A DNA stretch of 64,000 nt from Magnetococcales bacterium DCbin2 (GCA_002753615.1 PEAO01000001.1:28319-92318), one strand, 5' to 3'; counted from the stretch's first letter, positions 14,536 through 28,900 are shown. Numbers and translations: made by a program. Notes: generated by a model not told the origin, from the sequence alone.

Positions 14536-14539
14536 TGGC

Positions 14540-16621
14540 ATGTTTGGGAATATAAAAACCTCCGGTGGGGTTACCCCCGAATCAAAAAATGTAAACCGTC
14601 CTCTTCCGAACTCTGTACGCGACCGGTTTATGAAAATAAAGGCAGATTTTCAGCATGGATTTCGCGCATGGTCTAAGGGACTTACCTCTACGAAGACGCC
14701 ACCTAAAGCGGATCCGCCAAAAAATAAGGTGTCGCTAAACAGGGAGGTGAATCTGGTGTTGACTTCCTGGGGTTGGTTGCGGCTCGGTCCTGGGAATCAA
14801 TCCAATGACAGGGTATTTTCTTATAAAGTTATTATTGACCAATATGAAAATAATAGAGAAAAACAAGATGATATCAGCAAGTCTGCCGAGCAGTCACGGT
14901 TAAAGCAACGGCATGAGACGCTGCAACTGTCGGCGGTTCTTCATTCGCTTAGAAATTGGTGGTCCGAATCTGCTGAGTCGCAATACCGAGACCAAATTTC
15001 CCATCTTCATGTGATGTTGGGTGAAATCAGTGGCGTCATTGTCATGCCCAAAGATGATAGTTTCGTGAGTCGCGCAAACTGGATACGGACGAATTATCGG
15101 ATTCACAAGGCCCTTTCCTGCCGTTTAGCCTCCTATCTTCCTGGTTCCTACGCCTTTGTGCAAAGAAAGGTTCTGGACGATTTTCATTCCAAATTTGAAC
15201 CCTTTAAGGAGTTCACCAACAAAAAAATTGCTGGGGTTTTTCCTCTGGATGTCCTCCTGCTACATCATACGGATATCAAGAAATACTATGATGATAAAAA
15301 ACTGGTTGGGATTCTTAACCTGGAAGCGAGAAGAACCCGAATATTTTTGATTGAACGAGAAAAAACAGAGACCCTCCCCTTTGATGTTCCATGGGGGTTT
15401 GTGGATGTATTTGAAGATAGTGAATTTTCTACCAGTTTAGACGGTACACCGGAGGAGATTATCGGGAACCTGTTACCCATCGATCAAGACGAGTTGTTGC
15501 GCTTGATGCACGCTTACCCTGTTCCCCATTTGGCGATGCAAAAACTTTTTTCTCATCTTCTTGGATCATTACGCCTTGTCCTGGAGGGATACGTTCTCCG
15601 GGAAGGGGAAGATATTTCTCAAGATAGCCCATTTTTTCTGGCTGGAGGTTTTGATCTTTACTCGGAAAAGACCCCCGATAGGAAGGATTGGAAGCTTTTA
15701 AATGAGCTGGGGAAAAGAGTCGTTCATATACTTGGATTCAAAGAGAAAACACTCTCATCCCATTCCGAATCTAGTTGGTTACCATTGACTAAAAAAGATA
15801 TACAAGGGATCGGCGGTGGCATCTATTTTTCCAAACCTGGTCTCAGGGAGGTTTCGTCCGAGAATGAGACAATAGAGACGTATTACTCTGAAAGTGATTT
15901 ATACTATGCTGGGAATTCGCCAAGTAATCATGCTCTATCAAAATTTGCATCTGCATCCCGGGAATCTGTCAATAGTCCTCTGCCCCATGCCGAGGTATCC
16001 CCGACCGTCCCTGATGAGGAGAAGCCCACGATGTCGATAGGCGGAAAGGTATTTACGGGTATTTTCCTAATCCTATGCATTGGTTTTTATTTTTTTAGTA
16101 GGCACTATAACTCCTTGTATGATGGTCTTTATACCGGTTATATCGACACCGTCAAGTCGAACAAGGTCAAGATGGAAGAATTGGATAAATACCGGGATTA
16201 TTATCTCTCATCATCAAGCAATCGGTTGCTGCGTTTGAGTAAGGAGATGGATGAACGGATTAAACTCCAGAAACTTCGCGTCACCAAGCTGGGATTGGGT
16301 CAGTACAAAATAATTTTAGAAGGGGTGTTTTATAATAAAATACAGGGAGATGGAACAAATTTGAAAGAGACGAGAATGATCGATGAGTCGCGTGTTCACC
16401 AAGATAAGGGTACGGGAAGCGGCTCCATCAAAGGGCTAGGCGACAAGGCTGTGAGTGACCACTTCAAGGAGTATCTTGGTCACCTTTTTAAATCGACCGA
16501 CTCCGTTACCTATGGAATCGGCGAGTTGAGCATCGTGGGGCAGGATCGGCAACAGTCCGGTGGATATAGTTTTATCGTGACGATTATTGAGAGCAGTAAT
16601 AAAAAAGAAATAAAACTTTAA
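14540..16621 (+). CDS. Bitopic membrane protein in the GspL / PilM-PilN position (assembly-platform component candidate)
   Basis: About 690 aa. Large predicted cytoplasmic part, a single TM (VFTGIFLILCIGFYFF) about 170 aa from the C-terminus, then a periplasmic tail. Start is 4 nt after the upstream stop. No sequence motif recognised; the call is from topology and synteny. Confidence 0.4.
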   Translation: MFGNIKTSGGVTPESKNVNRPLPNSVRDRFMKIKADFQHGFRAWSKGLTSTKTPPKADPPKNKVSLNREVNLVLTSWGWLRLGPGNQSNDRVFSYKVIIDQYENNREKQDDISKSAEQSRLKQRHETLQLSAVLHSLRNWWSESAESQYRDQISHLHVMLGEISGVIVMPKDDSFVSRANWIRTNYRIHKALSCRLASYLPGSYAFVQRKVLDDFHSKFEPFKEFTNKKIAGVFPLDVLLLHHTDIKKYYDDKKLVGILNLEARRTRIFLIEREKTETLPFDVPWGFVDVFEDSEFSTSLDGTPEEIIGNLLPIDQDELLRLMHAYPVPHLAMQKLFSHLLGSLRLVLEGYVLREGEDISQDSPFFLAGGFDLYSEKTPDRKDWKLLNELGKRVVHILGFKEKTLSSHSESSWLPLTKKDIQGIGGGIYFSKPGLREVSSENETIETYYSESDLYYAGNSPSNHALSKFASASRESVNSPLPHAEVSPTVPDEEKPTMSIGGKVFTGIFLILCIGFYFFSRHYNSLYDGLYTGYIDTVKSNKVKMEELDKYRDYYLSSSSNRLLRLSKEMDERIKLQKLRVTKLGLGQYKIILEGVFYNKIQGDGTNLKETRMIDESRVHQDKGTGSGSIKGLGDKAVSDHFKEYLGHLFKSTDSVTYGIGELSIVGQDRQQSGGYSFIVTIIESSNKKEIKL

Positions 16622-16649
16622 AACAGATTAATGGAGGAAACCCTATCCC

Positions 16650-17777
16650 ATGATTTCCTTTGAAAATATCAAAAAACAAGTTTTGCACCCACGACGGTTT
16701 GTTAAAGAAAATAATACGTCCATTATGGTGTTTATAGCATTTGTGGCATGGCCAATCTTGGGGGCCTTTTTCTTTACGAGTTACCCCAAAATTGATTCGA
16801 TCACCAGCCAGAGCGACGCGGCAGTTTGCTCTGATACACAGTTGAGTTTTATTTTGCAATCACGGAAAAATAATACAAATCAGTCCGATGATAATCCAAC
16901 GACATTGTTAATCCAAAATATAAAAGATGCGGCCAGGGGTGCGGGTGTTGCGGAGTTGAAGAATTTGCAGGTTGTTGTTAAGGGAAAGGACAAGGGGGTG
17001 GTCGATGTCAGTTATGATGGCACGTATGAGAAATTCGTTAGGATGGTGAATCAATTGGAAGAGAATGGCCATCAAATATCCGAGATGTCCCTGGAATTCC
17101 TAAAGGAAGAGGGTAATATTGATTTACTGGCGATACGTTTTTCTCTAGAACATACCAATTTCCCTAATTTTCATAGAGATTTGAATGGTTTTAAAAATAT
17201 TCCAAATGAGCTTTCCGATTTTATTGGTAAAAATGCCCAAGGGCAGCAGGATGCCAATGGAGATTCCAGTCTATACTCAAAAGATAATTGTAACTTCGAC
17301 GTGAAAGAAATCAAGTCTGCGGTTGGTTCGTTTCCGTCAGGTAGCGTACCAGCCGAATTTAAAAAAATATTTGATGAATTGGCTACGGTAGTGAAATATA
17401 ATATAGATCAGAGGAATATTGTTGACCAGATTGCCAGTATTTCTGAAAAAACACCTCAACAGGATATCATCTTATCATTCAGGAATCCGTTTCATGAGTA
17501 TATTCGGTATTTTGAGAAAAATTATCTGAAGGTTCCAGATTATTATAAATTAGACAGGATTGATATTGTCGATAATTCCAAACAAGCTGATATCAACGGT
17601 ATCAGGTATGTCGTTGGTGACAGATTTCCTCGTAATGCCCACCATAAAGATGGTACCGCATTCTCCAACCTGGATACCCTGGTGGTTCGAGAAATAGATC
17701 CGGGAGGGTTTGTCCTTTTCCGTCAGGATAATGTTTATCCTTCTTACCTATTGCTTCCAAAGTTAAAGAAACTATAG
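16650..17777 (+). CDS. N-terminally anchored membrane protein in the GspM / PilO position
   Basis: RBS ggagga about 12 nt upstream. TM IMVFIAFVAWPILGAFFF near the N-terminus. The N/K/D-rich remainder has no recognised motif. Confidence 0.4.
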   Translation: MISFENIKKQVLHPRRFVKENNTSIMVFIAFVAWPILGAFFFTSYPKIDSITSQSDAAVCSDTQLSFILQSRKNNTNQSDDNPTTLLIQNIKDAARGAGVAELKNLQVVVKGKDKGVVDVSYDGTYEKFVRMVNQLEENGHQISEMSLEFLKEEGNIDLLAIRFSLEHTNFPNFHRDLNGFKNIPNELSDFIGKNAQGQQDANGDSSLYSKDNCNFDVKEIKSAVGSFPSGSVPAEFKKIFDELATVVKYNIDQRNIVDQIASISEKTPQQDIILSFRNPFHEYIRYFEKNYLKVPDYYKLDRIDIVDNSKQADINGIRYVVGDRFPRNAHHKDGTAFSNLDTLVVREIDPGGFVLFRQDNVYPSYLLLPKLKKL

Positions 17778-17818: not shown

Positions 17819-18205
17819 ATGAGTAAGATAAAAGAGATAAGATTGGACGAAGAGACTACTTTTTTCGTCCAGGTTGTGGACGATGAAGATGAAGTGGAGT
17901 GGCTGGATTCTTCAACGGAACAGGAAGAGTCTGGGGGACTGATCCGAGCCGGCCGGCGGGAAGAATCTTTGACCAAAAGAGTCTCCGTTTCGATGACGGA
18001 TGCCCTGACGGCGGTCTATCCGGTGATAGAAAAGGTTGTGGAAAAGTTTCGTGCCATCGATCCTTCGGAGTGCCGGGTCTCTTTTGGCCTGAAAGTTCAT
18101 GGCAATGTGGGGGTTGTCTTGGTCTCCGAAGTGGGGGTTGAAGCACAGTTGAAGGTAACCTTGCGTTGGCGTAAACCTAAGGCAAAAAAACAAAAAACAT
18201 CATAA
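17819..18205 (+). CDS. Small acidic protein resembling Trypco1 (trypsin-co-occurring domain 1 / CU044_2847-like)
   Basis: 128 aa. Acidic N-half (VVDDEDEVEWLDSSTEQEESG). C-terminal VSFGLKVHGNVGVVLVSEVGVEAQLKVTLRW matches my recollection of the Trypco1 signature (EFGLK...G...A.L.V.L.W). Sits immediately upstream of a trypsin-like protease gene. Confidence 0.6.
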   Translation: MSKIKEIRLDEETTFFVQVVDDEDEVEWLDSSTEQEESGGLIRAGRREESLTKRVSVSMTDALTAVYPVIEKVVEKFRAIDPSECRVSFGLKVHGNVGVVLVSEVGVEAQLKVTLRWRKPKAKKQKTS

Positions 18206-18219
18206 AAATAGGATTATAC

Positions 18220-19647
18220 GTGTCTAATAAGTTGAATGCCTATCACCGTTGTCTGGTCACATTTTTAGGTCCTTCAGGCACTTCGGTGGGTATGGGCTTT
18301 CTGGTTGGGGAGAGACTGATTCTTACCTGTGCCCATGTGGTGGAGAGCGCAATTGGGAGGAAGAAACCCCAGGAACAAATGCCGGGAGATCCAGTTAGCA
18401 TTGAATTTCCGTTTTTACACCAGGAAGGGAAAGCAACGGTCTCCCAGTGGAGGCACTGCAAAGTTTCCCCTTCTCTGGAAAGGGAAGGTGCTGCCGCCAC
18501 TACGGACCTAGCCCTTTTGACCCTGGTGGGTGATCCTCCGCCAGATGCTTATCCCATTACCCTGGTGAAGAATCGGTCTGGCGAGGGTTTGTCATGCAAG
18601 TGTTATGGTACTCCTGATCCGAAAGTCAGCGAAGATTGGGTGTACGGGCAGGTCGGAGAGGTGCATCCTGGGGGGTACCGGGATTTCAGACCTCCGGGAG
18701 GCGATAACTCTGTGCTTGGGAACACGTTCTTCGTCAGTGAAGGATTCAGTGGTTCTCCCGTTTATTTCCAGGATGACCCCCATCTGGCTTGGGGCATGGT
18801 TACCATGATCAAAAAACGGGGTGGTTCCCGTATCGCCTACCTTGTCCCCGCACACACTCTGATTGAAGTATTCCCGGGGGTCAAACGGGAAGACTATGCA
18901 CCTCCGAAAACCGGCGGAAGCCACGTCTCTCTACCCGATCAGGTCATTGCTAGGTTATGGCGTCTGGACCGTCAGCCACAATGGTATGCCCTTGAAAAAG
19001 CCGTTAAAGAGATACGTGACGGTACCCTGGTGACAGTTCTCTCTGGGAACCAAGCAGATCGTTCGGATATCCTGGTGAAGCGATTTAATAGTGATCTCTG
19101 GCATGTCATGGGCGGCTTGCCCAAGGGTGGCCATTCTGCACGGATAGTACACAAGAACTGGCCTTTCCTTTTGGACCGGGAAGAGATATGTCCCGCCGAC
19201 AAACCCACACTTCTCTACGTTCAGATCGATGCCGGAGCTTGGAGCCAGAAAGACGGGGAACAGTTTCGGGATTTTCTTCAGGAGATAAAAAACAATCCTC
19301 CACATGCTGGTACCGCAATTTTTATCTATTTTCAGTATTCTGAAGGGTTATTATCAAATTTTTTTTCACCATCAAAAAACAATCGACTGGGAAATCATGT
19401 CGAAAGCTTCTTGGGTGCGCATCCAGGATCCATTCACTTTCTTTCATTGCCGCCTTTTTCACTCATAACCGATCTGGATATTTACGGATGGATATTGAGC
19501 GAGGCTGAGAGAGTTCTGGAATGGTCGCAAGCAGAAAAATTAAGAAAAGAAATATTTTGTAGAAAACGGTGGAAGCCGATTACTATGGATAAAGTCGTGA
19601 ATCAGCTAGAAGAACTTATTCCTGCGCTCCCGAATATGACCTCCTGA
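18220..19647 (+). CDS. Trypsin-like serine protease fused to a ~250-aa unrecognised C-terminal domain
   Basis: Catalytic triad context: LILTCAHVV (His39), TDLALLTL (Asp96), GFSGSPVY (Ser177). GTG start 14 nt after the upstream stop. No signal peptide seen, so it is predicted cytoplasmic. Confidence 0.8.
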   Translation: MSNKLNAYHRCLVTFLGPSGTSVGMGFLVGERLILTCAHVVESAIGRKKPQEQMPGDPVSIEFPFLHQEGKATVSQWRHCKVSPSLEREGAAATTDLALLTLVGDPPPDAYPITLVKNRSGEGLSCKCYGTPDPKVSEDWVYGQVGEVHPGGYRDFRPPGGDNSVLGNTFFVSEGFSGSPVYFQDDPHLAWGMVTMIKKRGGSRIAYLVPAHTLIEVFPGVKREDYAPPKTGGSHVSLPDQVIARLWRLDRQPQWYALEKAVKEIRDGTLVTVLSGNQADRSDILVKRFNSDLWHVMGGLPKGGHSARIVHKNWPFLLDREEICPADKPTLLYVQIDAGAWSQKDGEQFRDFLQEIKNNPPHAGTAIFIYFQYSEGLLSNFFSPSKNNRLGNHVESFLGAHPGSIHFLSLPPFSLITDLDIYGWILSEAERVLEWSQAEKLRKEIFCRKRWKPITMDKVVNQLEELIPALPNMTS

Positions 19648-19663
19648 AAAGGTAAGATGACCA

Positions 19664-20668
19664 ATGTCTGATCTTTATACCGTCGATGGCCCGTCTCCTC
19701 AGGAACCGACAGCATGGAAGCCGATTCCCCTGAAAAACGTTTTGCAAGATTCCACCGGTTATCGGCCCGATCCGGGATTGGTGGATGCCGTCAATGTGGC
19801 CCTGACTCTGGGTATGCCCTTGTTGGTTACCGGGGAACCTGGTGTGGGCAAGACCGCCCTGGCAGATAGTGTGGCACGCCGTCTGGGGTTGGGAGATCCT
19901 TTAAAGTTTGTCGCTAAGAGCGAATCCCGCGCCTCGGATCTTTTTTTCACCTATGATCGTCTGCTCCGGTTTCAAGAGAGTCACTGTACGAATGAGCCAT
20001 TGGATTTTAAGAAGTATATTAGTTATGTCGCCCTGGGGCAGGCTATTCTGAACAGTCGCAGCCGAGAAGAATGGGGTGGCTTGTTGGATGGAAAGCCTCA
20101 TGACGGACCCAAACGGAGCGTCGTGCTGATTGATGAAATCGACAAGGCCCCACGAGATTTTGTCAACGATCTCTTGGTGGAGATTGAACGACTGGCCTTT
20201 CCGCCCCTGCCGGACATGCCTAACCAGATGTCCATGGAGGCTGACCCGAATCTGGCCCCGGTGGTGATTATCACCAGCAACCAGGAACGTTCCCTGCCAG
20301 ACCCCTTTCTACGCCGTTGTGTCTACTATCATATCCCTTTTCCCAACCACAAACAGTTGCAGGAGATTGTGGAAGTACGGATGAAAAAACTGTTCAACCC
20401 ACAAACTCAACCTGCTTGGCTGGCTCGCGCTATGGAGCTTTTCTGGTGGTTGCGGGAAGGGGTGAAACCGGAACTGCGTCGGAAACCAGGACTGGGAGAA
20501 CTCCTGACTTGGTTGGTTTTTCTTGGAGAACGAGCCATCGGGCAAAGTTCTCTGAAAGATTCCTTTTTGTTTGAAACTGCCTGTCCGTTGATGCTGAAAA
20601 CCAGCCTTGATCAGGGACGGCAAGAGGCTCTTATCAAGGTGTGGACGTCCAGTTCCAAACAAGGGTGA
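19664..20668 (+). CDS. MoxR-type AAA+ ATPase
   Basis: Walker A LLVTGEPGVGKTALA, Walker B VVLIDEIDKAPRDFVNDLL, sensor region VVIITSNQE, single AAA+ module of about 330 aa. Confidence 0.85.
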   Translation: MSDLYTVDGPSPQEPTAWKPIPLKNVLQDSTGYRPDPGLVDAVNVALTLGMPLLVTGEPGVGKTALADSVARRLGLGDPLKFVAKSESRASDLFFTYDRLLRFQESHCTNEPLDFKKYISYVALGQAILNSRSREEWGGLLDGKPHDGPKRSVVLIDEIDKAPRDFVNDLLVEIERLAFPPLPDMPNQMSMEADPNLAPVVIITSNQERSLPDPFLRRCVYYHIPFPNHKQLQEIVEVRMKKLFNPQTQPAWLARAMELFWWLREGVKPELRRKPGLGELLTWLVFLGERAIGQSSLKDSFLFETACPLMLKTSLDQGRQEALIKVWTSSSKQG

Positions 20669-20672
20669 TCCG

Positions 20673-23507
20673 GTGGCTGAAGAAAATGATCATCGCTTGC
20701 CCGATCCCACTGTATTTCTCCTGCAATGGCGGCACTACGGCCATCCCCTGACTCTGGAACGGTTGGTGGTGGTCCAACGTCTGTTGCTGGATCTGGCGGC
20801 ACGCGGCAATTTGCCTGCGGACCCTCGGCGATGGGCAGGGTTGCTTGCCCCTCTTTTTTGTCAATCCGCCGAGGAGCAGGAGACGTTTCACCAAAGCTAT
20901 GGCAAATGGTTGGATGGGTGGACTTCGAGTACTCATCCAAACCCTCAGGGAATACCAACATCCCCTGGCCAACCCCGCCCCTCCGTCCTGAAACAGGCTC
21001 TCAAGACCGCTCAACAGCCTCTACGATCATGCATTCACCTCTTTTCTGGGTTGCGCAACCGATGGTGGGATTATCTAAGACAGGTCGTCCTGTTCTTTTT
21101 GATCGCCGGTGTTTCCATCGCGTTGATCGCCGGTGTTTCCATCGCGGGTTATGCCGTGATCATGGGAGCAATATACGTTCCGTCTGGGGATCCTTTCTTG
21201 TTCCGGCGGCTATTGTTGGCCGGAATTGCGGTCGCTACCGCTTCTATCGTATTGAGGCAGCAACGGCGAAACCCGCGTTCATGGTTGTCGCGCCAGCCTG
21301 ATTCGGGGAGTATCACAGAATCTTTTCCCCTCTACCTGAGTCGTGATGGTCTGGGCGATCTTAGCCGTGAGGCCCGTGAGACTGCCAGATATTTACGTCA
21401 ACGTGAGGCAATTTTGACTCGGGATCTGGATGTGGAAGCTTCTCTGAAAGCCACACTGGACCAAGGTGGTTTGCCTACCCCCATTTTGGGGAAACGCCAT
21501 AAGGTACCGGAATATCTGGTCCTCGTGGATCGGCGCAATCTTCGGGATTCCCAAGCCGGCATGACCATGAAGTGGCTTGAATGGTTGCGCGAAGAGGCTG
21601 TTGAAGTCTCCAGTTGGACCTTTCATGGGGATCCTCGGTATTGCTCTCCAACGGATCCAGATGAGGCGTCCTGTTCGCTGGAGACTCTGCTGGCGCGCTA
21701 TCATGATCGGCGATTGTTGATCTTTGCCGAATCTCGCCTTTTCTTCGATTATGCACGGGGACTTTTTCAGCCCTGGGTGGCAGAGTTGGATGATTTCCCT
21801 TGGAAACTCCTGGCCGTCCCTGAAAATCCAGGGGCATGGGGGTTCCGGGAAAGGGGTATCCAGGGGTTGGGCATGATGGTTGCGCAAGCCAGCGTCTCCG
21901 GGTTACAACAGGCCATCGCGCGTCGTTCTGAATCCCTGCCGAGTGGACTGCCGCTGCCGGAACCCTCTACCGCCAATCCCTTTCCCCCTTTGTTGGCCGA
22001 CGATGATTTTTCCTGGCTGGGCGGGGCGACCCCAGAGCGTAAAAACATTGCTCGCCTGATGAGAGAGTTGGAACAATACCTCTCGGATGGTGGTGTGTCC
22101 TGGTTGCGGGCTTGCGCTATCTATCCAGAGTTGGATTGGCGTTTGACTTTACAATTGGGGAGCCGGTTGTCCGACCCCGATGGCCGAACGCTGTTTTCTC
22201 AGGATACCCTTCTCCGCCTGACTCGGCTTCCCTGGTTTCGTCTCGGTAGTATGCCCCTCTGGCTACGCCGGGAGTTGATTCGGAGTATAAACCGCAGGCA
22301 ACGTTCCAAAATACGCAAACTGATCTGGTCGTCCTTGTTAGAGGGGCGTGAGCATAAGGATCTCGCCTTATTGCTATCATCAGCCCACATTTCTTCTTTC
22401 AGTACCATGTTCAAAGCTTGGCTCAATCGTCAGCCCGATAGGGAACCTATGCGAGATAAGCTTTTTGTCTCCTTTCTATTGGGTTGGCGGCACTGGAACT
22501 ACCCCTTACCCCTTCCGCCGATGGAATTGATTTCGAGATGGAATACAACAGGATGGGAAATCGCTATGGGCTTGATGTCGGGAATGACGGTATTCCTGGT
22601 GATCACCGCGCCATCCACCCTGTTGACCATTACCGTTGCCTCTGGATTTGTTGGGTGGGTTGCCTTTTTTATCTGGAATACACGGAGCATTGCGCCTCTC
22701 TCTCTTGTTTCTCCATCGGTGACAAATTTATCTTCCGCCAAGCCCATGGTCCCACAAGAACCACAGCCCTTTGAAGTATGGCAGGATCATGTGAGTAAAA
22801 TGATGTTCGTTTGGATTCCACCGGGGCAATTCACTATGGGGAGTCCAGCGGATGAAAAAGGGCGGTCTTCCGATGAAGGTCCAGAACATGAGGTGGAGAT
22901 ATCGGGGTTTTGGTTGGGAAAATATGAGGTAACGCAGGGGGAATGGGAACGATTCATGGGGGAAAACCCCTCGCGTTTCAAAAAAGGGGATCGTTACCCG
23001 GTTGAACAGGTATCCTGGGACGATGTGCAGAAATTTATCTATAGGTTGAACATTGCAGGGGATGGTGGGTATCGTTTGCCAACGGAAGCGGAGTGGGAAT
23101 ATGCGTGCCGAGGAGGGACACGGACGCCGTTCTCATTGGGTGAGACTTTGATTGCGGGCACGGATGCCAATTTTGATGGAAGACAAGTTTCTCAACCTGA
23201 GGGTGTCCAAGGGGTTTATTGCGGGGAAACCATGCCGGTGGGGAGTTTCCCGGCCAATTCCCGGGGATTGCATGATATGCACGGAAATGTTTGGGAGTGG
23301 GTACATGACAGTTATGTTTCGGAAGCGTACTCGAACCATGCGCCTCAGGATCCATGCATTGACATAGACCGATCCAGCCGCATTCGTCGTGGCGGGGCAT
23401 GGGTTGGTGAAGTTAAGAACCTGCGTTGCGCCTCCCGCAAAAGTCTTGCCCACGACGACCGTGGTCACCATATCGGGTTTCGTCTTGCTAAAAATCACAA
23501 GGCGTAA
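20673..23507 (+). CDS. Polytopic membrane protein with a C-terminal FGE-sulfatase (SUMF1/EgtB/PvdO-like) domain
   Basis: GTG 20673 lies 4 nt after the MoxR stop (track ORF starts 20607 inside moxR). TM clusters VVLFFLIAGVSIALIAGVSIAGYAVIMGAIYV, LLLAGIAVATASIVL and WEIAMGLMSGMTVFLVITAPSTLLTITVASGFVGWVAFFIW. C-terminal FGE motifs listed in the domain entry. Confidence 0.8.
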   Translation: MAEENDHRLPDPTVFLLQWRHYGHPLTLERLVVVQRLLLDLAARGNLPADPRRWAGLLAPLFCQSAEEQETFHQSYGKWLDGWTSSTHPNPQGIPTSPGQPRPSVLKQALKTAQQPLRSCIHLFSGLRNRWWDYLRQVVLFFLIAGVSIALIAGVSIAGYAVIMGAIYVPSGDPFLFRRLLLAGIAVATASIVLRQQRRNPRSWLSRQPDSGSITESFPLYLSRDGLGDLSREARETARYLRQREAILTRDLDVEASLKATLDQGGLPTPILGKRHKVPEYLVLVDRRNLRDSQAGMTMKWLEWLREEAVEVSSWTFHGDPRYCSPTDPDEASCSLETLLARYHDRRLLIFAESRLFFDYARGLFQPWVAELDDFPWKLLAVPENPGAWGFRERGIQGLGMMVAQASVSGLQQAIARRSESLPSGLPLPEPSTANPFPPLLADDDFSWLGGATPERKNIARLMRELEQYLSDGGVSWLRACAIYPELDWRLTLQLGSRLSDPDGRTLFSQDTLLRLTRLPWFRLGSMPLWLRRELIRSINRRQRSKIRKLIWSSLLEGREHKDLALLLSSAHISSFSTMFKAWLNRQPDREPMRDKLFVSFLLGWRHWNYPLPLPPMELISRWNTTGWEIAMGLMSGMTVFLVITAPSTLLTITVASGFVGWVAFFIWNTRSIAPLSLVSPSVTNLSSAKPMVPQEPQPFEVWQDHVSKMMFVWIPPGQFTMGSPADEKGRSSDEGPEHEVEISGFWLGKYEVTQGEWERFMGENPSRFKKGDRYPVEQVSWDDVQKFIYRLNIAGDGGYRLPTEAEWEYACRGGTRTPFSLGETLIAGTDANFDGRQVSQPEGVQGVYCGETMPVGSFPANSRGLHDMHGNVWEWVHDSYVSEAYSNHAPQDPCIDIDRSSRIRRGGAWVGEVKNLRCASRKSLAHDDRGHHIGFRLAKNHKA
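21101..21148 (+). repeat. Direct in-frame tandem duplication (2 x 24 nt, 22/24 identical)
   Basis: gatcgccggtgtttccatcgcg occurs twice back to back, encoding IAGVSIAL-IAGVSIAG within a predicted TM helix. Confidence 0.9.
22770..23492 (+). other. FGE-sulfatase / SUMF1-like domain
   Basis: FVWIPPGQFTMGS, GFWLGKYEVTQGEW, YRLPTEAEWEYACRGG, GLHDMHGNVWEWV, RIRRGGAW, HIGFRLA. Confidence 0.85.
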
Positions 23508-23682: not shown

Positions 23683-24414
23683 TCAACGGCTGAAGGGTGG
23701 CTGGGACATTGGGTTTTTGAGACTATCTCTTGCACAGGTCCGTGCGTCCAGAAACAAATGATAAAGTGCGGATACGAGAGCAAAATCTCCAATCAGATAA
23801 TCGAGCAATCTTGAGTCAAAGATGTGCGGCTCATATTCGGAGACACGGCATAGATAAACATTCTTTTTTCCGTAAATATTGCGTATCGGTTCAGGCGTCC
23901 CCTCCGGTGGCATCACCGGCGGACGTTTATAGTTGGTACCTTCAACTGTAAACCCTTTTTCCTCGGCCTTTTTGATCGTACTGAGGAAGAGTTCCTGCTG
24001 TTGCTGGATAATGGTCCGAGCGATTCCCATCGTCGCTGGCTTGGCTGAGTAAAATCCCATTCCGTAGCGGCAGCGGTCTGGCGTCACTTCGAAAAAATAG
24101 GCCGGCATACCGGTCCATTCGGGGTCTGCACGGTGGTAGGCGAACCATGCTTCTGTCTTGTAAGGTGATTTGTTGGCGGAAAAACGGGTATCCCTCTGTG
24201 GACGCGACAGCTTCAGAGAAATGTGACTGTCGATTTGTACCATATGCGATGCCAAGGCTTCCGCCAGGGATTTCAGCGGTTTCATGACGTGGGTTTCATA
24301 GGCGTCTTTGTTTGAACGATACCACTCGCGCGAATTGTTCTCTCTTAGTTTCCCCAAAAGAAGCGGAAGTTGGTCACTCAGGGATAGAAAAGTCGGCGTG
24401 TTTGAGTCCTTCAT
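23683..24414 (-). CDS. DUF2461 / TIGR02453-family protein
   Basis: LRENNSREWYRSNKDAYETHV ... RPQRDTRFSANKSPYKTE ... GFYSAKP matches the family signature (NN.R.WF ... R..RD.RFS.DK.PYKT). Confidence 0.75.
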   Translation of the reverse strand: MKDSNTPTFLSLSDQLPLLLGKLRENNSREWYRSNKDAYETHVMKPLKSLAEALASHMVQIDSHISLKLSRPQRDTRFSANKSPYKTEAWFAYHRADPEWTGMPAYFFEVTPDRCRYGMGFYSAKPATMGIARTIIQQQQELFLSTIKKAEEKGFTVEGTNYKRPPVMPPEGTPEPIRNIYGKKNVYLCRVSEYEPHIFDSRLLDYLIGDFALVSALYHLFLDARTCARDSLKNPMSQPPFSR

Positions 24415-24464
24415 TTAAAAGCCCCTCCATTCCCATGACTCTGAAATCCATAACCCGCCGATGA

Positions 24465-25940
24465 TCATCGTTGCCATGAGGTCAGCTTTTCCCAAATCTT
24501 GCCCAAGAACTGTTTGGCAGACATCCTGCGGATGGATTGGTAACGTACATACCCACGGGGACTGGTCATGTACCACCGCACCAGTCCAAACACCCTGGGC
24601 AGAATCATGCAAATCCTGACGGCGAGACGACGGACGGGTGAATCCCGCCAAAGCTCAAGGTTCACCATGTCGGCATACATGGCAATCTTGCGTTTATGAG
24701 ACAGGGGATAATTCAGTGAAGAAAGGGAATAATAATTGCTGGGCCGGATTTTCGGATCAAAGAGATCCATGGCCAGAACTTTGGTGTAGAGTTCTGTCGC
24801 TGGCAACGGGTAAAACGTCGTCGCCTGGGCACTGTCAGGCTGGATGGTCTGCAACAGTCGGATACTATCTCGCATGACCAGCTCCGATTGTTCCGGCATT
24901 CCCATCATGACAAAAGCGTGCGTCCGAATCCCATGTTGTTGCATCAAACGGTAACTGTCGAGAATCTTTTGATCAGGCATGTTGCGTTTGAGAATTGTTC
25001 GACGGAACGCTTCATTGCCACTTTCAATTCCTATGGAACAGGAATAAGCCCCCGCTTCCTTCAGATCCCGTACCCGATTTTCACGAATCAATTCCGGGCG
25101 TTCCATAAAAACAAATGGAGTTTTCAAGTCATGGAGGTGTTCCCGCAATTCATCGGTACGATGGTCGGTCGTCATGACCACCTCATCGACAAGATACATC
25201 ATGTCCATACCGTAAGCCGATCGGAACAAATCCATTTCCCGCCGTAACTGGGAACCGCTCTTTTCCCGACGCCACTTGCCCGCCCCTTTGCTGAGGTCCA
25301 TCAATGCGGAATTACTACAGTAGGTACACAGATAGGGACAACCGCGACTCCCTTCAAAGACGCCACACACCCCCGCCTGTGGAACCAAACGTAAAAAACA
25401 ATGTTGCGTATAGTGCCGCGCATCAAACAGTTCATAACGGGGGGCGGGGGAATTGCTCAAATCAAACAGCGGCCCTACCGGATTTTTGACCAACTCACTC
25501 CCATATTGAAAAAAAATATTGGGGAGATCACGGATTCGTTCTGGCGCACCTTGGGCCATGGCACGGGCGACAGCCAGACAGGCATCCTCCCCATCGCCCA
25601 TCACCCCGTAATCCACCAGGGGTGCCAACTCCTGTGGAACAAACGTGGCATGGGGACCACCCGCCAACAACAGCCGGTTGCCTTTATTTTTTCTCAGGGC
25701 CTCCAGGACGGGGAGCGTCGCGGAGAATTCCAGGGTACGCAACGAAATTCCGATAATATCCGGTTGCCATCGTTCCATCTCAGCCATAACGTAGCCGGCC
25801 CATTGACCCGCCTCATGAAAAGTCAGGTCACATACGCGGACATCCACCCCATGATGCAGCAGATGGGAGCCTAACGCTAAAATACCCATCTGCGGCGTTT
25901 TTGGTCGGGTAATATTAGGATAAACAAACATGAACCGCAT
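24465..25940 (-). CDS. B12-binding-domain radical SAM enzyme
   Basis: N-terminal Rossmann-like cobalamin-binding region (MRFMFVYPN...GILALGSHLLHHGVDVRVCDL...LLAGGPHATF). CX3CX2C in EGSRGCPYLCTYCSNS. The track ORF extends to a GTG at 25964 that abuts the adhesin stop; ATG 25940 is the conservative start. Confidence 0.8.
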   Translation of the reverse strand: MRFMFVYPNITRPKTPQMGILALGSHLLHHGVDVRVCDLTFHEAGQWAGYVMAEMERWQPDIIGISLRTLEFSATLPVLEALRKNKGNRLLLAGGPHATFVPQELAPLVDYGVMGDGEDACLAVARAMAQGAPERIRDLPNIFFQYGSELVKNPVGPLFDLSNSPAPRYELFDARHYTQHCFLRLVPQAGVCGVFEGSRGCPYLCTYCSNSALMDLSKGAGKWRREKSGSQLRREMDLFRSAYGMDMMYLVDEVVMTTDHRTDELREHLHDLKTPFVFMERPELIRENRVRDLKEAGAYSCSIGIESGNEAFRRTILKRNMPDQKILDSYRLMQQHGIRTHAFVMMGMPEQSELVMRDSIRLLQTIQPDSAQATTFYPLPATELYTKVLAMDLFDPKIRPSNYYSLSSLNYPLSHKRKIAMYADMVNLELWRDSPVRRLAVRICMILPRVFGLVRWYMTSPRGYVRYQSIRRMSAKQFLGKIWEKLTSWQR

Positions 25941-25963
25941 GGCACGGCACCTTAAGTCATGCA

Positions 25964-28900
25964 CTACGTGGGGAGAGGGTGATTGAAATCAGCCATGCTC
26001 AATGTATCGGTAAGCTCTTTGAATATGGGGAAAAAAGAGTGTCCCTGTACGGCGTCATCCAGGTGCGTTGCACCACCTTCAAAAGCACTCTGGGCGGTTG
26101 CAACGCCATGGTAGAATTCTACCAAATCGCTGTAGATCGATGGCAATCCGTGTTGCCCCTGTTGCATGTCCATCACATGAAGATGATCGATCTGTTCCTG
26201 GTTCATGATCCCGGCAGGTTGGGTTTCCATGACCCAGTGCATGAAATTCACAAATTGATCTTCCAGTGAACCGTTGACGTCCGACGATGCATTCCCTTGT
26301 GTTTCCACCCCTGTATGGGCGTCTCCGCCAAGTTGTTCCGGTGGTTGACCCCATCCAGATTCTGGATGGGCCAGGGCATTCATGAAGTCCGTAAACTGCT
26401 TCTCAAACGGATCGACCTGGGTGGCTACCGAATGGTCACCAACATGAGGAGTCCCCATACCCGACGCATAGGACATGTTGACATCCGCCATGAGGCCCAC
26501 AGTCCCGTCAGCCCTCTCAAAACTCGCCAGTTCCGATATGAAATTGCCGGCTACCTCTGTTGGATGGGGTATCGTTTGTGATGTCAGCGTCAAGGTGGTA
26601 ATGCCCAGACCGCCCAGACCAACCAACGCGCCATCCGCCGCCAAAACATGCAGATTGCCGAAGGCCGCATCCTGCATATCGATATAATGGTCATGATTGT
26701 CATCCAAGGAGGCCAGTGCCGTCAGACCGTTGGTGCTTCCTGGGGAAAAGTATTCGGAAAACACCTCTCGAATATCGTCAATGACCCCATTGCCGTTACG
26801 ATCCATGACCAGCAAACCATCTCCGCCGGTGACCCAACCCGTCTGATCCAGCTTACCATCGGCGTTCATGTCGAAGGAAAAAGGATCGGTTTGTCTGGAG
26901 GAAAGTTCAATGCCATTACCATTCAGGTCCAGCACAAGGGGATCACCACCCCAGTCGTTGATGCTAGCAAGGGCAGTGCCGGTATCGCGATTGTCCAAAC
27001 TGGTATAATACGTGAAAGTGGCGGACGCCCCAGAGGCAAGCGATCCAACATCAAAGGTGATCGAAATCCCCTGGTCTGCGGTATAGGTTATCCCCGTTGC
27101 GGGAGCCGATTCATAGACCCCAGGATCATAAATATTTTTTATGGTAAAACCATCATTGCCGTACCCGTCGGTATACGGACCGTTGTAGTATGAGGGAAAG
27201 CTTGCAACCTGAGCGCGCGCATCATCCGAATAGAAAAAAATAGAGGCTTGGGTCTCGGTCAGGTTTTGATAAGCATCGTTGGGGAGGCTCGTAGCCTGGA
27301 CCAGGGAATGACCGCTGTCCTGATAGACCACGGTGTTAATGGTCGTGAAGCTTCCCCCTTTGTCAACCGTATTATCGGGGTCAAAACTGCGCATGAAACG
27401 AACCTCGTCCAGTGTTCCTGAACTTAGGTTAGTCAGCGTGACAACGTTGCGAAAGAAATTGGCATTGACATCAAAGCAGATAGTTTGCGAAATACCCAAA
27501 GCATTCTCAAGCTCACCCTCGATTGTGGCCGACAAAGTATTTCCCGCAGAATTGTCCGTAATAGAGAGGATGGTGATGTCACCACCGCCCGAAAGCTGGG
27601 AATTCGTACCGATGTGGGGGGTTCCTCCCTCTTTAAAACCGGCAGTCCATCGCTCTTCGGGCGTGCCGGGTAGGAAGAAATCGATGGCTGAATTGATCCC
27701 CTGGTTGAAACCATCATGATCGAAGCTCATCCCAATATTGGAGTGACTGGAAGTTCCGTAGAAACCTGTTGGTTTTGATCCCCCGGTGCCGAACGATCCC
27801 AGGGAGGAAATACCCAACTCAATATAATTTCCCCCTAGAAAAACCTCACCGCCATCCTTGGTGTGATGCGCCCCTGTGAGGGTTACGGAGGGGGCTATCT
27901 CCAGGGCAAAACTTTGACCCGAAATGGTACCGTCGCCATCACTCAGGGAAAAAAGAAAACTGTCACTGGTGCTTGCCCCACCATCGTGGGTATACCACAT
28001 GATACCGTCGTTGATATCGGCTTGGGTAAAGGTACTGCCCACCCCTAACATGGTTCCACCCTTGGTCAAAACGCCATGACTCGGCAAGGTGTCCAGGGTG
28101 TAAACCAAGGATGATGTGGATAGCGTTTCCACATCGGTGGTTACCAGGGTGGCGGAAGAGATGACGACATCACCATCATTGAAAAGAGACGCCCCCTGAT
28201 TGGCGATGGTTGGCGTATCGTTGGCACCGGTCATGTTGACATTCAGGGTCGCTGTCCTGGTGAGTGTTCCATCGTTGGCGGTAACCGAAAAACTGTCTAC
28301 CCCATTGGAGAGCAGGCTGTTGATGGTTTGGTCGTTTGGTACATAAACGTAGGCACCGCTTGCCGCATGGAGATAAAGCGTTCCGTAGGCTCCTTCGTTG
28401 ATGAGATCATAGGAAATACCGCCGATGGTGGTATTGAGACTGGTACCACCGACCATACCGTATGTGATGCTGCTTGCAGAAGAATGGGTGAGGAACAGGG
28501 TACCGCCGGTTTGGGTGAACACATCCAACCCAGCCGTATCGACATAAGTAATTGCATTCACGGTAAAGCTGGGGGAGGGGGGGGCGATCACGATCATGGT
28601 GACGGGGTTTGTGGCCTGACTTGCAACACTTTCCAGGGTGCTAAAACCGTCGGTATAGGAAGCGATGACACGGATGGTTTTATCGATCAGGGCATTGCTC
28701 AAGATCAAGGTGTTTCCTGTGGCCCCGGTGATATTGGTGCCGTTTGCCTGCCATTGATAACTGATGATCCCCAATCCGTCTCCATCAGCCAGGGTATTGG
28801 CCGCAGTCAAGATATGCCCCTGGATGGCTGTACCGGAAATGGTAACCGTTCCGGTAGGCTGTGCATTGATGTGAGTGACCGGATTGGTGGCACTGCTGGT

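What the first reader, a model, noticed from the sequence alone, without database searches (positions are those of the whole stretch)
17819..23507. Trypco1-like protein + cytoplasmic trypsin-like protease + MoxR AAA+ ATPase + polytopic FGE/SUMF1-domain protein: candidate NTP-dependent conflict/signalling cassette lacking a vWA partner
Seen: four tightly spaced genes (gaps 14, 16 and 4 nt). The 128-aa protein ends in VSFGLKVHGNVGVVLVSEVGVEAQLKVTLRW. The protease has an intact His39/Asp96/Ser177 triad, no signal peptide and an unassigned ~250-aa C-domain. The MoxR has intact Walker A/B. The 944-aa protein has at least four TM segments, about 400 aa of unassigned sequence and a complete FGE-sulfatase domain. 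Known: as I recall, comparative genomics from the Aravind group (Kaur et al. 2020) predicted MoxR-centred, trypsin/caspase/FGE-associated conflict systems and coined Trypco1. These normally include a vWA protein and often a beta-propeller. To my knowledge they remain experimentally uncharacterised. Inference: this is a variant with no obvious vWA gene, with the only propeller 6 kb upstream in the same operon, and physically fused to a secretion-machine operon. It is a good candidate for an undescribed defence or envelope-surveillance system.
Basis: partly seen in the sequence, partly recalled or inferred. Interest (0 to 1): 0.86.

Follow-up and report, generated by a model that had tools for sequence, protein, structure and literature searches.

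The report
iSTAND-type MoxR–vWA protease/pore conflict system
The four genes are real, but they are an ordinary complete member of a predicted bacterial immune/suicide system (iSTAND–MoxR–vWA "ternary" system with a protease-activated pore toxin), and the vWA partner said to be missing is hidden inside the 944-aa membrane protein.

Summary
Four co-directional genes (gaps 14, 16 and 4 nt) encode Trypco1, a trypsin-like protease with an intact His39/Asp96/Ser177 triad, an AAA+ ATPase, and a polytopic protein ending in an FGE-like domain.

The claimed novelty does not hold.
- **Protease C-domain.** The "unassigned" C-domain is a divergent inactive-STAND (iSTAND) domain.
- **vWA partner.** Residues ~225-425 of the 944-aa protein are most likely a divergent CoxE/NorD-like vWA domain. 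It belongs to a family with more than 3000 representatives.
- **Synteny.** In about 65 loci from many phyla, this family sits directly after an orthologous AAA+ gene and an iSTAND gene.

This is the iSTAND class of MoxR-vWA ternary conflict systems described by Kaur et al. 2020. One Desulfobacteraceae MAG carries the same four-gene architecture, including the FGE domain.

The FGE domain lacks both catalytic cysteines, so it is a lectin-like binding module rather than a sulfatase maturase. None of 83 related loci lies next to secretion genes, so the link to the secretion operon looks incidental.

Verdict: a new member of a known kind. The complete system has not been tested experimentally.

The parts
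17819..18205 (+). Trypco1/Pepco small protein (128 aa): predicted latent β-barrel pore-forming toxin with an 11-residue basic, proline-containing C-terminal tail (RKPKAKKQKTS).
   Evidence: Pfam PF19493 E=3.5e-18 and NCBIfam CU044_2847_fam E=3e-13. Alignment with Trypco1 proteins of L006, L014, L050 and L073. Function taken from Evans et al. 2025 preprint.
18220..18870 (+). Trypsin-like serine protease domain (residues ~1-217) with catalytic H39, D96 and S177 and no signal peptide.
   Evidence: Pfam Trypsin_2 E=3.7e-8 and Trypsin E=1.9e-4. Triad residues checked. Closest relatives are trypsin domains fused to STAND, VMAP and FGE modules.
18958..19623 (+). Inactive STAND (iSTAND) domain (residues ~247-468) of the protease protein. 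The Walker A position reads SGNQADRS instead of GxxxxGK[ST].
   Evidence: An HMM built only from 54 non-protease iSTAND proteins of syntenic loci scores 42.5 bits, E≈1e-11. Pfam PF19995 is the top hit but sub-threshold, E=0.027. 51 of 60 proteins in the same operon position match PF19995.
19664..20668 (+). MoxR-clade AAA+ ATPase (334 aa): Walker A at residues 57-64, Walker B DE at 157-158, sensor-1 N206, RR at 217-218.
   Evidence: Pfam AAA and AAA_5. 48% identical to the AAA+ of a Pfam-verified iSTAND operon. Family profile versus PDB gives midasin AAA domains as best hits, E=2e-17. NCBI names it 'MoxR family ATPase'. An orthologue directly precedes the vWA-family gene in about 65 loci.
20706..20930 (+). 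N-terminal four-helix domain (residues ~12-86) of the vWA component, conserved across the family.
   Evidence: AF2 helices at 12-21, 28-43, 51-62 and 66-86, pLDDT about 80-90. Conserved columns in alignments A1 and A2. Matches Kaur et al.'s description of a CoxE-type four-helical N-domain. Homology to CoxE-N was not tested.
21087..21269 (+). First pair of transmembrane helices (residues ~139-199).
   Evidence: Hydropathy and AF2 helices 115-163 and 174-199. A TM region occurs at this position in homologues.
21345..21947 (+). Divergent CoxE/NorD-like vWA (Rossmannoid α/β) domain (residues ~225-425, core 280-421). D286 and D292 lie after β1. Glu353 stands where the family consensus has Asp after β4.
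   Evidence: AF2 domain model pLDDT 91.4, pTM 0.85, with β1-α-β2-β3-α-β4-α-β5-α-β6-α order. Foldseek best-TM hits are NorD of the NorQD complex, prob 0.99-1.0, TM 0.42-0.46. VWA_CoxE weak hits in 14 of 80 homologues. 3258 representative homologues.
21978..22478 (+). Conserved α-helical linker domain (residues ~436-602), probably the 'vWA-L' linker, containing the family signature WLxACAVYPxLxW...RLPWFRxGxMPxWLR.
   Evidence: Conserved columns in A1 and A2. AF2 helices. vWA-L concept from Kaur et al. 2021. The assignment is by position and was not tested against a vWA-L profile.
22554..22676 (+). Second pair of hydrophobic helices (residues ~628-668) separated by a short APS turn.
   Evidence: Hydropathy and AF2 helices 618-644 and 649-670 at low confidence. 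This element is variable in homologues: none in L050, one in L036.
22806..23492 (+). Non-catalytic FGE-sulfatase-fold (FGS / C-type-lectin-like) domain (residues 712-940): predicted ligand-binding sensor or effector module.
   Evidence: Pfam PF03781 E=6e-51. Best PDB match is PvdO, E=5e-32. In the alignment to human FGE, C336 is replaced by Gly and C341 falls in a 3-residue deletion. The same C-terminal domain occurs in L050, L036 and 5 of 46 family members.

Best explanation
The cassette is a complete iSTAND-type MoxR-vWA 'ternary' conflict system in a Magnetococcales chromosome. Its output module is a Trypco1/Pepco pore toxin paired with a protease.

**Components**
1. The vWA component is an inner-membrane protein. 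It runs: four-helix N-domain, 2 TM, divergent vWA, helical linker, 2 TM, non-catalytic FGE-fold lectin-like domain.
2. The MoxR AAA+ is presumably a hexameric ring.
3. The third component is a trypsin-like protease fused to an inactive STAND domain.
4. Trypco1/Pepco is the latent toxin.

**Proposed mechanism**
- The FGE-fold domain and/or the iSTAND domain binds an invader-derived ligand.
- The vWA site captures a peptide of a partner subunit.
- ATP hydrolysis by MoxR remodels the complex and sets an activation threshold.
- The protease is thereby licensed.
- The protease cuts the basic C-terminal tail off pre-assembled Pepco β-barrels.
- The barrels then permeabilise the membrane, and the infected cell dies or arrests (abortive infection).

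**What is shown and what is inferred**
- Shown here: the domain identities, intact catalytic motifs, and a conserved iSTAND→MoxR→vWA gene order across phyla.
- Taken from the literature: Pepco is a pore toxin activated by tail cleavage by its adjacent trypsin-like protease. This was shown for a Streptomyces Pepco-Avs4 pair, not for this system.
- Inferred: which subunit senses, what the ligand is, the role of MoxR/vWA remodelling, and the defence function itself.
For: - **Profile hits.** Trypco1, Trypsin_2, AAA/AAA_5 and FGE-sulfatase are all found.
- **Synteny.** Both close homologues of the 944-aa protein's N-terminal region sit in syntenic operons. One is preceded by Pfam iSTAND plus AAA+, the other by Trypco1, trypsin and AAA+.
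- **Family size.** The core family has 3258 representatives with variable C-termini, including FGE, PEGA-like and WD40 domains.
- **Gene order.** Among 80 genome loci, essentially every one with enough upstream DNA shows iSTAND→AAA+→core protein.
- **iSTAND neighbours.** 51 of 60 upstream proteins match Pfam iSTAND. Their N-domains are TIR, DUF4062, trypsin, caspase, bDLD3 and EADs, as described by Kaur et al..
- **Protease C-domain.** It hits a clean iSTAND HMM at E≈1e-11.
- **AAA+.** It is 48% identical to an iSTAND-operon AAA+. Its family profile best matches midasin, and NCBI names it MoxR.
- **vWA evidence.**
- **Recurrence.** L050 has an identical four-gene architecture, with components 27-44% identical (Trypco1, AAA+ and FGE domain 40-44%).
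- **Pepco mechanism.**
Against: - The vWA assignment rests on weak signals: Foldseek E≈1e-3 with TM below 0.5, generic Rossmannoid PRTases scoring similarly, and no Pfam or PDB sequence hit above threshold.
- The window protein has Glu rather than Asp at the β4 position.
- Pfam's own iSTAND model is sub-threshold on the window protein, E=0.027.
- No PADLOC model recognises the system.
- No phage-defence experiment exists for any MoxR-vWA ternary system in the searched literature.
- The host is a unicellular magnetotactic coccus, whereas these systems are reported as enriched in multicellular bacteria.
- The Pepco cleavage-site residue (a conserved Ile in the Streptomyces protein) could not be mapped here.
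Confidence: 0.78

Rival explanations
1. One reading: a new variant with no vWA partner, functionally tied to the upstream type II secretion / type IV pilus-like operon, acting as an envelope-surveillance system.
For: - The cassette starts 41 nt after the last gene of a co-directional operon encoding secretin, GspE-like, GspF-like and pseudopilin proteins, with no terminator-like site predicted between them.
- The 944-aa protein is polytopic.
- No Pfam VWA model reaches threshold.
Against: - A divergent vWA-like domain is present.
- None of 83 related loci has secretin, GspE, GspF or the two unknown upstream genes within 7 kb.
- GC content drops to 37-39% in the ORF just upstream and rises to 48-57% in the cassette, suggesting separate origins.
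- The even number of predicted TM helices (2+2) puts the FGE-fold domain in the cytoplasm. The closest architectural twin, L050, has no TM before its FGE domain.
Confidence: 0.07
2. A housekeeping MoxR-vWA chaperone pair, like NorQ/NorD or CoxD/CoxE, that matures or assembles a membrane complex such as the neighbouring secretion machine. The protease would act in quality control.
For: - Best structural hit is NorD of the NorQD complex.
- Weak VWA_CoxE similarity.
- The cassette lies next to a membrane machine operon.
Against: - The obligatory upstream partner across the family is an iSTAND protein carrying TIR, caspase, trypsin, Death-like or EAD domains.
- C-termini are hypervariable.
- A Pepco toxin gene is present.
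- No conserved client gene is found nearby.

These are hallmarks of conflict systems rather than assembly chaperones (Kaur et al. 2020).
Confidence: 0.05
3. The 944-aa protein is a true formylglycine-generating enzyme that matures a sulfatase, and the gene cluster is fortuitous.
For: A full-length FGE-sulfatase Pfam match, E=6e-51.
Against: - Both catalytic cysteines of human FGE are missing: C336 is replaced by Gly and C341 falls in a deletion.
- The best solved relative is PvdO, not an FGE.
- No sulfatase was found among the ORFs scanned from 0.9 to 43.6 kb.
- The FGE domain is only one of many interchangeable C-terminal modules in the family.
Confidence: 0.02
4. The FGE-fold domain is a target of a diversity-generating retroelement (DGR), making the system a hypervariable antigen receptor as in the cyanobacterial and Thiohalocapsa loci.
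For: - FGE/CLec domains of MoxR-associated proteins are frequent DGR targets (Kaur 2020; Doré et al. preprint).
- TvpA, a DGR variable protein, is among the PDB matches.
Against: - No direct repeat of 40 nt or more pairs the 3' end of the gene with any other place in the 64-kb window.
- No reverse transcriptase was found among the ORFs scanned.
- A template repeat elsewhere in the genome cannot be excluded.
Confidence: 0.05

Closest known systems
iSTAND ternary systems (vWA-MoxR subsystem 2) of Kaur, Burroughs, Iyer & Aravind, eLife 2020 (PMC7159879)
   Same: - Gene order runs from an iSTAND protein with an N-terminal signalling or peptidase domain, to MoxR, to the vWA component.
- The vWA component has a four-helical N-domain, N-terminal TM segments and a C-terminal FGS domain. 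That paper reports TM segments in 28% and FGS in 22% of such systems.
- A trypsin domain is fused to iSTAND, with a neighbouring Trypco1 gene.
   Different: - The window's iSTAND and vWA domains are unusually divergent. Pfam iSTAND is sub-threshold, and Glu replaces the second conserved Asp.
- A second TM pair precedes the FGS domain.
- The host is a unicellular Magnetococcales bacterium rather than a multicellular one.
- There is no DGR in the window.
Pepco (Trypco1/2)-protease effector modules, Evans et al., bioRxiv 10.1101/2025.11.14.688446
   Same: - A small Trypco1-family protein is encoded immediately upstream of an active trypsin-like serine protease.
- It has a charged, proline-containing C-terminal tail.
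- That paper lists FGE among the sensors linked to Pepco-associated proteases.
   Different: - The characterised protease is fused to an active Avs4 STAND sensor and triggered by phage portal protein. Here it is fused to an inactive STAND domain and accompanied by a separate MoxR ATPase and a vWA-FGS membrane protein.
- The tail here is 11 residues, against about 20 in the Streptomyces protein.
- The cleavage residue was not identified.
VMAP ternary systems (vWA-MoxR subsystem 1) and DGR-linked MoxR loci (Doré et al., bioRxiv 10.1101/2023.09.22.558884)
   Same: - Trypsin with Trypco1, MoxR, and a vWA protein ending in an FGS/CLec domain.
[quoted passage not shown] This is probably the same family.
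   Different: - No VMAP-C domain is present; the third component is iSTAND.
- No DGR reverse transcriptase or template repeat lies in the window.
NorQ/NorD and CoxD/CoxE MoxR-vWA chaperone pairs
   Same: A MoxR-clade AAA+ is followed by a vWA protein. NorD is the best structural match, and VWA_CoxE is the only recurrent Pfam signal.
   Different: These are housekeeping metal-centre insertion chaperones with a conserved client. They lack iSTAND, protease, toxin and variable C-terminal modules.

Membership tests
iSTAND-type MoxR-vWA ternary system (Kaur et al. 2020) | A third component containing an iSTAND domain is encoded directly upstream of the MoxR gene. | tested here: met
   Protease residues 247-468 score 42.5 bits, E≈1e-11, against an HMM built from 54 non-protease iSTAND proteins of syntenic loci. 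51 of 60 such proteins match Pfam PF19995. Pfam PF19995 itself is only E=0.027 on the window protein.
iSTAND-type MoxR-vWA ternary system (Kaur et al. 2020) | The STAND module is inactive, with eroded NTP-binding motifs. | tested here: met
   At the aligned Walker A position the window has SGNQADRS and the family consensus is HGDExQxHD. There is no GxxxxGK[ST]. This is by inspection of alignments.
iSTAND-type MoxR-vWA ternary system (Kaur et al. 2020) | A MoxR-clade AAA+ ATPase with intact Walker A/B and arginine finger, without the N/C extensions of VMAP-type MoxR. | tested here: met
   Walker A at 57-64, Walker B at 155-160, invariant RR at 217-218. AAA_5 hit. Profile best matches midasin AAA domains, E=2e-17. 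NCBI names it MoxR family ATPase. It is 334 aa with no extra domains. The clade-defining helix-2 insert was not examined structurally.
iSTAND-type MoxR-vWA ternary system (Kaur et al. 2020) | A vWA-domain protein is encoded directly downstream of MoxR, with Asp residues at the ends of strands 1 and 4 (MIDAS). | tested here: inconclusive
   Position and family membership are met. Fold topology is vWA-like with a high-confidence model. The best-TM Foldseek hit is NorD, but TM is 0.42-0.46 and E≈1e-3. VWA_CoxE weak hits occur in 14 of 80 homologues. D286 is present, but the β4 position is Glu353 where the consensus is Asp. No above-threshold sequence hit to any vWA model.
iSTAND-type MoxR-vWA ternary system (Kaur et al. 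2020) | The vWA component has a four-helical (CoxE-type) N-terminal domain, often with N-terminal TM segments. | tested here: met
   AF2 shows four helices at residues 12-86 followed by two TM helices, and these are conserved in homologues. Homology to the CoxE N-domain was not tested.
iSTAND-type MoxR-vWA ternary system (Kaur et al. 2020) | A variable C-terminal effector region across family members, with FGS the commonest. | tested here: met
   Family C-termini include FGE-sulfatase, CarboxypepD_reg, WD40/TPR, IcmF-related, Lcl_C, CHAT and MFS. The window has FGE-sulfatase.
Pepco/Trypco1-protease effector module (Evans et al. 2025) | A Trypco1-family small protein is encoded next to a catalytically intact serine or cysteine protease. 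| tested here: met
   PF19493 scores 66.4 bits against a cut-off of 24.6. The protease gene is 14 nt downstream and has H39, D96 and S177.
Pepco/Trypco1-protease effector module (Evans et al. 2025) | A disordered, charged, proline-containing C-terminal tail removed by cleavage after a conserved Ile. | tested here: inconclusive
   The tail RKPKAKKQKTS is present after the last β-strand. No reference Pepco sequence was available to align, so the equivalent of Ile97 could not be located.
Pepco/Trypco1-protease effector module (Evans et al. 2025) | Forms SDS-resistant nonameric or decameric β-barrels that permeabilise membranes after cleavage. | not testable with these tools
   Needs multimer modelling or biochemistry.
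VMAP ternary system | A VMAP-C domain in the third component. | tested here: not met
   No VMAP Pfam families on the protease at E≤0.01, nor on the C-domain at E≤10. The C-domain is iSTAND instead.
Formylglycine-generating enzyme (catalytic FGE/SUMF1) | The two active-site cysteines (human C336 and C341). | tested here: not met
   In the alignment to 1y1e/2aft, C336 aligns to Gly and C341 lies in a 3-residue deletion.
DGR variable protein | A variable repeat at the 3' end paired with a template repeat, and a nearby reverse transcriptase. | tested here: not met
   No matching repeat in the 64-kb window and no RT among scanned ORFs. The rest of the genome was not searched.
Catalogued anti-phage systems (PADLOC-DB v2) | Hits to system-specific models. 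| tested here: not met
   Only weak domain-level hits were found: LmuA protease domain at 2.8e-6, and P-loop matches to TRIP13 and IetA. Nothing for Trypco1 or the 944-aa protein.

The most novel reading that the evidence does not exclude
In this genome the membrane-anchored vWA-FGS subunit might face the periplasm and be co-transcribed with the upstream type II secretion / type IV pilus-like machine. The iSTAND-MoxR-vWA system would then monitor pilus- or secretin-dependent invasion at the envelope and trigger the Pepco pore. That would be a physical coupling of a surface machine to an abortive-infection module. My evidence does not strictly exclude this: the gap is 41 nt, no terminator is predicted, and the TM topology is uncertain. 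But nothing supports it beyond adjacency.
Probability: 0.06. Interest if true: 0.7.

Novelty: new member of a known kind. Interest (0 to 1): 0.3.

Why it matters
- **Annotation.** The work removes an apparent anomaly, a MoxR conflict system without vWA. It shows that a large, Pfam-unannotated family (more than 3000 representative proteins) is the vWA component of iSTAND systems. Current domain libraries miss both this vWA domain and divergent iSTAND domains. The 'unidentified N-terminal extensions' reported next to MoxR in DGR loci are probably the same thing.
- **Biology.** The locus is a compact four-gene example that joins an experimentally understood output (protease-activated Pepco pore) to an untested upstream logic (iSTAND, MoxR, vWA, lectin-like domain). 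That makes it a reasonable candidate for reconstituting how MoxR-vWA ternary systems are triggered.
- **Limits.** It is not a new kind of system.

Tried and rejected
1. **Word-indexed homologue searches.** Searches with the protease, with the 700-aa N-region and with alignment A2 returned almost nothing beyond self. The exhaustive HMMER search and the genome scan were needed.
2. **Sequence searches of PDB.** The full family profile and the domain profile found no vWA protein, only a chance lipase-related match.
3. **Structure prediction with locus-derived segments.** It was redone with full-length library proteins.
4. **NCBIfam 'MadB family AAA-type ATPase'.** The hit is partial (58 bits against a cut-off of 475). 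A literature search for MadB gave nothing relevant. It was dropped as a lead.
5. **Kaur et al. supplement.** The text held contains only the organism list, not the per-system tables, so the family could not be cross-checked by accession.
6. **DGR hypothesis.** No template or variable repeat was found.
7. **Sulfatase-maturation hypothesis.** Rejected because the catalytic cysteines are missing.
8. **Secretion-operon linkage.** Rejected because conservation is absent.
9. **Promoter and terminator scans.** These were at background level and uninformative.

Full report
**1. Observation**

The region holds four co-directional ORFs:
- 17819-18205, 128 aa
- 18220-19647, 475 aa
- 19664-20668, 334 aa
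- 20673-23507, 944 aa from a GTG start; a TTG at 20607 is also open

The gaps between them are 14, 16 and 4 nt.

Pfam gives Trypco1 (PF19493, 66 bits), Trypsin_2, AAA/AAA_5 and a full-length FGE-sulfatase match at residues 712-940. The catalytic H39, D96 and S177 are in place, as are Walker A (GEPGVGKT, residue 57) and Walker B (VVLIDEID, residue 155). Four hydrophobic segments are present in two pairs, at about 139-197 and 628-668.

The identical locus is present in two public MAGs. NCBI labels them Magnetococcales and, for one assembly, Nitrospirae, and already names the AAA+ 'MoxR family ATPase'.

**2. The protease C-domain**

The word-indexed search found no close homologue of the whole protease. 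Its trypsin domain is about 30% identical to trypsin domains fused to STAND NTPases, VMAP modules and FGE domains.

Pfam's iSTAND model (PF19995) is the top hit on the C-terminal 251 residues, but only at E=0.027.

I built an HMM from 54 iSTAND proteins taken from syntenic loci. All of them lack a protease domain, and the window and its protease-bearing relatives were excluded. This HMM matches window residues 247-468 with 42.5 bits, E≈1e-11.

At the Walker A position the window reads SGNQADRS, so the module is an inactive STAND domain.

**3. The 944-aa protein and the 'missing' vWA**

*Close homologues and their contexts.* The N-terminal 700 residues have two close homologues, and both lie in syntenic operons.
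- In a Blastocatellia MAG the homologue follows a DUF4062+iSTAND protein and an AAA+ that is 48% identical to the window's.
- On a Logan contig the homologue follows Trypco1, a trypsin protein and an AAA+.

*Family size.* An exhaustive HMMER search found 3258 representative proteins (849 at E≤1e-30). They share residues ~15-100 and ~235-615 and have very different lengths and C-termini. The C-termini include FGE-sulfatase, CarboxypepD_reg, WD40/TPR, IcmF-related, Lcl_C, CHAT and MFS. No Pfam model covers the shared core.

*Gene order across genomes.* A scan of one genome per species returned 80 loci. They come from Beggiatoa-like Gammaproteobacteria, cyanobacteria, Acidobacteriota, Chloroflexaceae, Calditrichia, Planctomycetota and Desulfobacteraceae. 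My ORF and HMM analysis shows that essentially every locus with enough upstream DNA has the order iSTAND protein → ~330-aa AAA+ → core protein.

*Upstream partners.* Of 60 upstream proteins, 51 match Pfam iSTAND. Their N-terminal domains are TIR (18), DUF4062 (5), Trypsin_2 (5, including the window), caspase (3), bDLD3 and several EADs.

This matches the 'iSTAND ternary system' of Kaur et al. 2020, which they describe as follows:
- iSTAND fused to TIR, peptidase or EAD domains;
- a MoxR without extensions;
- a vWA component with a four-helical CoxE-type N-domain, N-terminal TM segments in 28% of cases, and variable C-terminal effectors, of which FGS is the commonest (22%).

*Direct tests of the vWA assignment.*
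- An AlphaFold2 model of residues 1-700 is confident for residues 230-420.
- A domain-only model of residues 222-430, built with a 63-sequence alignment, reaches pLDDT 91.4 and pTM 0.85.
- From residue ~280 the element order is β1-α-β2-β3-α-β4-α-β5-α-β6-α, which is the vWA order.
- D286 and D292 follow β1. Glu353 lies after β4, where the family consensus is Asp.
- In Foldseek against PDB, the best-TM hits for both models are chain G of the NorQD complex (9qhe, 9qhf). This chain is NorD, the vWA partner of the MoxR ATPase NorQ. Probability is 0.99-1.0, but TM is only 0.42-0.46 and E≈1e-3, and generic Rossmannoid phosphoribosyltransferases score close behind.
- A relaxed Pfam scan of 80 domain-only homologues gave VWA_CoxE in 14 and VWA_2 in one. 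No other family appeared in more than three.
- Profile searches of PDB sequences found no vWA protein.

I conclude that the domain is very probably a divergent CoxE/NorD-like vWA domain. I mark formal membership as inconclusive.

The helical region after it (~436-602, with the family signature RLPWFRxGxMPxWLR) fits the 'vWA-L' linker described by Kaur et al. 2021.

**4. The AAA+**

Beyond its orthology with iSTAND-operon ATPases, an 18-sequence profile best matches midasin AAA domains in PDB, E=2e-17, well ahead of Clp, Lon and RuvBL. Pfam AAA_5 covers the domain. Walker A, Walker B, sensor-1 Asn and an invariant RR pair are conserved. This supports the MoxR/midasin clade. I did not examine the clade-defining helix-2 insert.

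**5. The FGE-fold domain**

The best solved relative is PvdO, E=5e-32.

In the alignment to human FGE (…GGSYMCHRSYCYRYRCAAR…) the window reads …GGAWVGE---VKNLRCASR…. C336 is replaced by Gly and C341 lies in a deletion. The FGE domains of L050 and L036 lack the pair too. The roles of C336 and C341 are established knowledge about FGE.

The domain is therefore a non-catalytic, lectin-like 'FGS' module. No sulfatase is present among the ORFs scanned from 0.9 to 43.6 kb. There is no template/variable repeat pair or reverse transcriptase in the window, so DGR diversification is not supported here.

**6. Context**

The cassette starts 41 nt downstream of a co-directional operon. That operon encodes a secretin, a GspE-like ATPase, GspF, a WD40+cyclase protein, pseudopilins and two unknown proteins.

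None of these genes has a homologue within 7 kb of the vWA gene in any of the 83 related loci. GC content also shifts, from 37-39% in the last upstream ORF to 48-57% in the cassette. Promoter and terminator scans are at background level.

The adjacency is best read as incidental. Downstream genes (DUF2461, a B12-radical SAM protein, a 1670-aa FecR/cadherin-like protein, dinB, gyrA, serS) are ordinary chromosomal genes on either strand.

**7. How common is this exact architecture?**

Trypco1 with a protease-iSTAND protein occurs in the window and in L006, L050 and L073. L014 has a caspase-iSTAND protein with Trypco1 on the opposite strand.

L050, a Desulfobacteraceae MAG, has the same four genes including a C-terminal FGE domain, with 27-44% identity per component (Trypco1, AAA+ and FGE domain 40-44%; protease 27%; N-terminal core of the 944-aa protein 30%). 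Its vWA-FGS protein has only the first TM pair, so its FGE domain would be cytoplasmic.

The window has 2+2 predicted TM helices, which also implies a cytoplasmic FGE domain. L036 has 2+1. Topology is therefore variable across the family and remains uncertain for the window.

**8. Mechanism**

*From the literature.* Pepco (Trypco1/2) forms stable 9-10-mer β-barrels. Its adjacent trypsin-like protease removes a charged, proline-rich C-terminal tail, and this makes the barrel toxic to membranes (Evans et al. 2025 preprint). That paper lists FGE among the sensors linked to Pepco-associated proteases.

Kaur et al. propose that the vWA domain captures a peptide and that MoxR ATP hydrolysis remodels the ternary complex as a thresholding step. 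Doré et al. propose that the vWA-CLec protein is the sensor.

*Applied to this locus.*
- Ligand binding by the FGS and/or iSTAND module leads to MoxR/vWA remodelling.
- Remodelling licenses the trypsin domain.
- The trypsin domain cleaves the Pepco tail.
- Pepco forms a pore, and the cell dies or arrests.

Only the domain identities and the synteny are shown here. The sensing step, the gating step and the defence role are inferred.

No experimental study of any MoxR-vWA ternary system was found in the held literature. PADLOC has no model for it.

**9. Verdict**

Its headline claims do not survive: the vWA partner is not missing, the large regions are not unassigned, and the coupling to a secretion machine is not supported.

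This is a divergent but complete member of a known, computationally defined class, and its output module is now experimentally understood. The full system is untested, and its vWA and iSTAND domains escape standard annotation, so it keeps modest value.

Interest 0.3; novelty: new member of a known kind.

Noticed in passing
window 8354-11914 (+): A 1186-aa protein sits inside the T2SS/T4P-like operon, between the GspF-like gene and the pseudopilin genes. It combines weak WD40/β-propeller matches at the N-terminus with an adenylate/guanylate cyclase catalytic domain at residues ~982-1124. This is an unusual component for a secretion or pilus operon.
   Followed up: partly
window 14474-17777 (+): Two ORFs (715 aa and 375 aa) at the end of the secretion operon have no Pfam, NCBIfam or PADLOC match. 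The 375-aa ORF has markedly low GC (37-39%) compared with both flanks.
   Followed up: partly
window 25964-30976 (-): A 1670-aa protein carries a FecR domain and a cadherin-like domain. It contains a 12-nt tandem array (about 29401-29604, encoding a short Pro/Thr/Glu/Ala/Asn-rich repeat, which Pfam weakly matches to procyclin PARP repeats) and three 276-nt-spaced repeats (28705-29347).
   Followed up: no
window 23683-25964 (-): Convergent with the cassette are a DUF2461 protein and a B12-binding radical SAM protein. The radical SAM protein gives a weak PADLOC hit to candidate system PDC-M51A, E=7.7e-7. One related locus (L049) also has a radical SAM homologue nearby.
   Followed up: partly
L014:3789-5979: In a Phormidium MAG the Trypco1 gene lies on the opposite strand, next to an iSTAND protein whose N-terminal domain aligns as caspase-like rather than trypsin-like. 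Its vWA component ends in TPR plus CHAT. This is consistent with Pepco pairing with cysteine proteases.
   Followed up: partly
L073:6905-11869: In a Cyclobacteriaceae MAG, a Trypco1/trypsin-iSTAND/MoxR operon has a vWA component that ends in a Major Facilitator Superfamily transporter domain. This is an unusual 'effector' for such a system.
   Followed up: no
window 17819-20668 (public records HAT49649-51 / MBF0602085-87): Identical proteins are deposited under two different organism labels, 'Nitrospirae bacterium' and 'Magnetococcales bacterium'. One MAG is probably mis-binned or mislabelled.
   Followed up: no
window 20607-20672: An alternative TTG start 66 nt upstream would extend the 944-aa protein to 966 aa and overlap the 3' end of the MoxR gene by 62 nt. 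Public annotations use the GTG at 20673.
   Followed up: no
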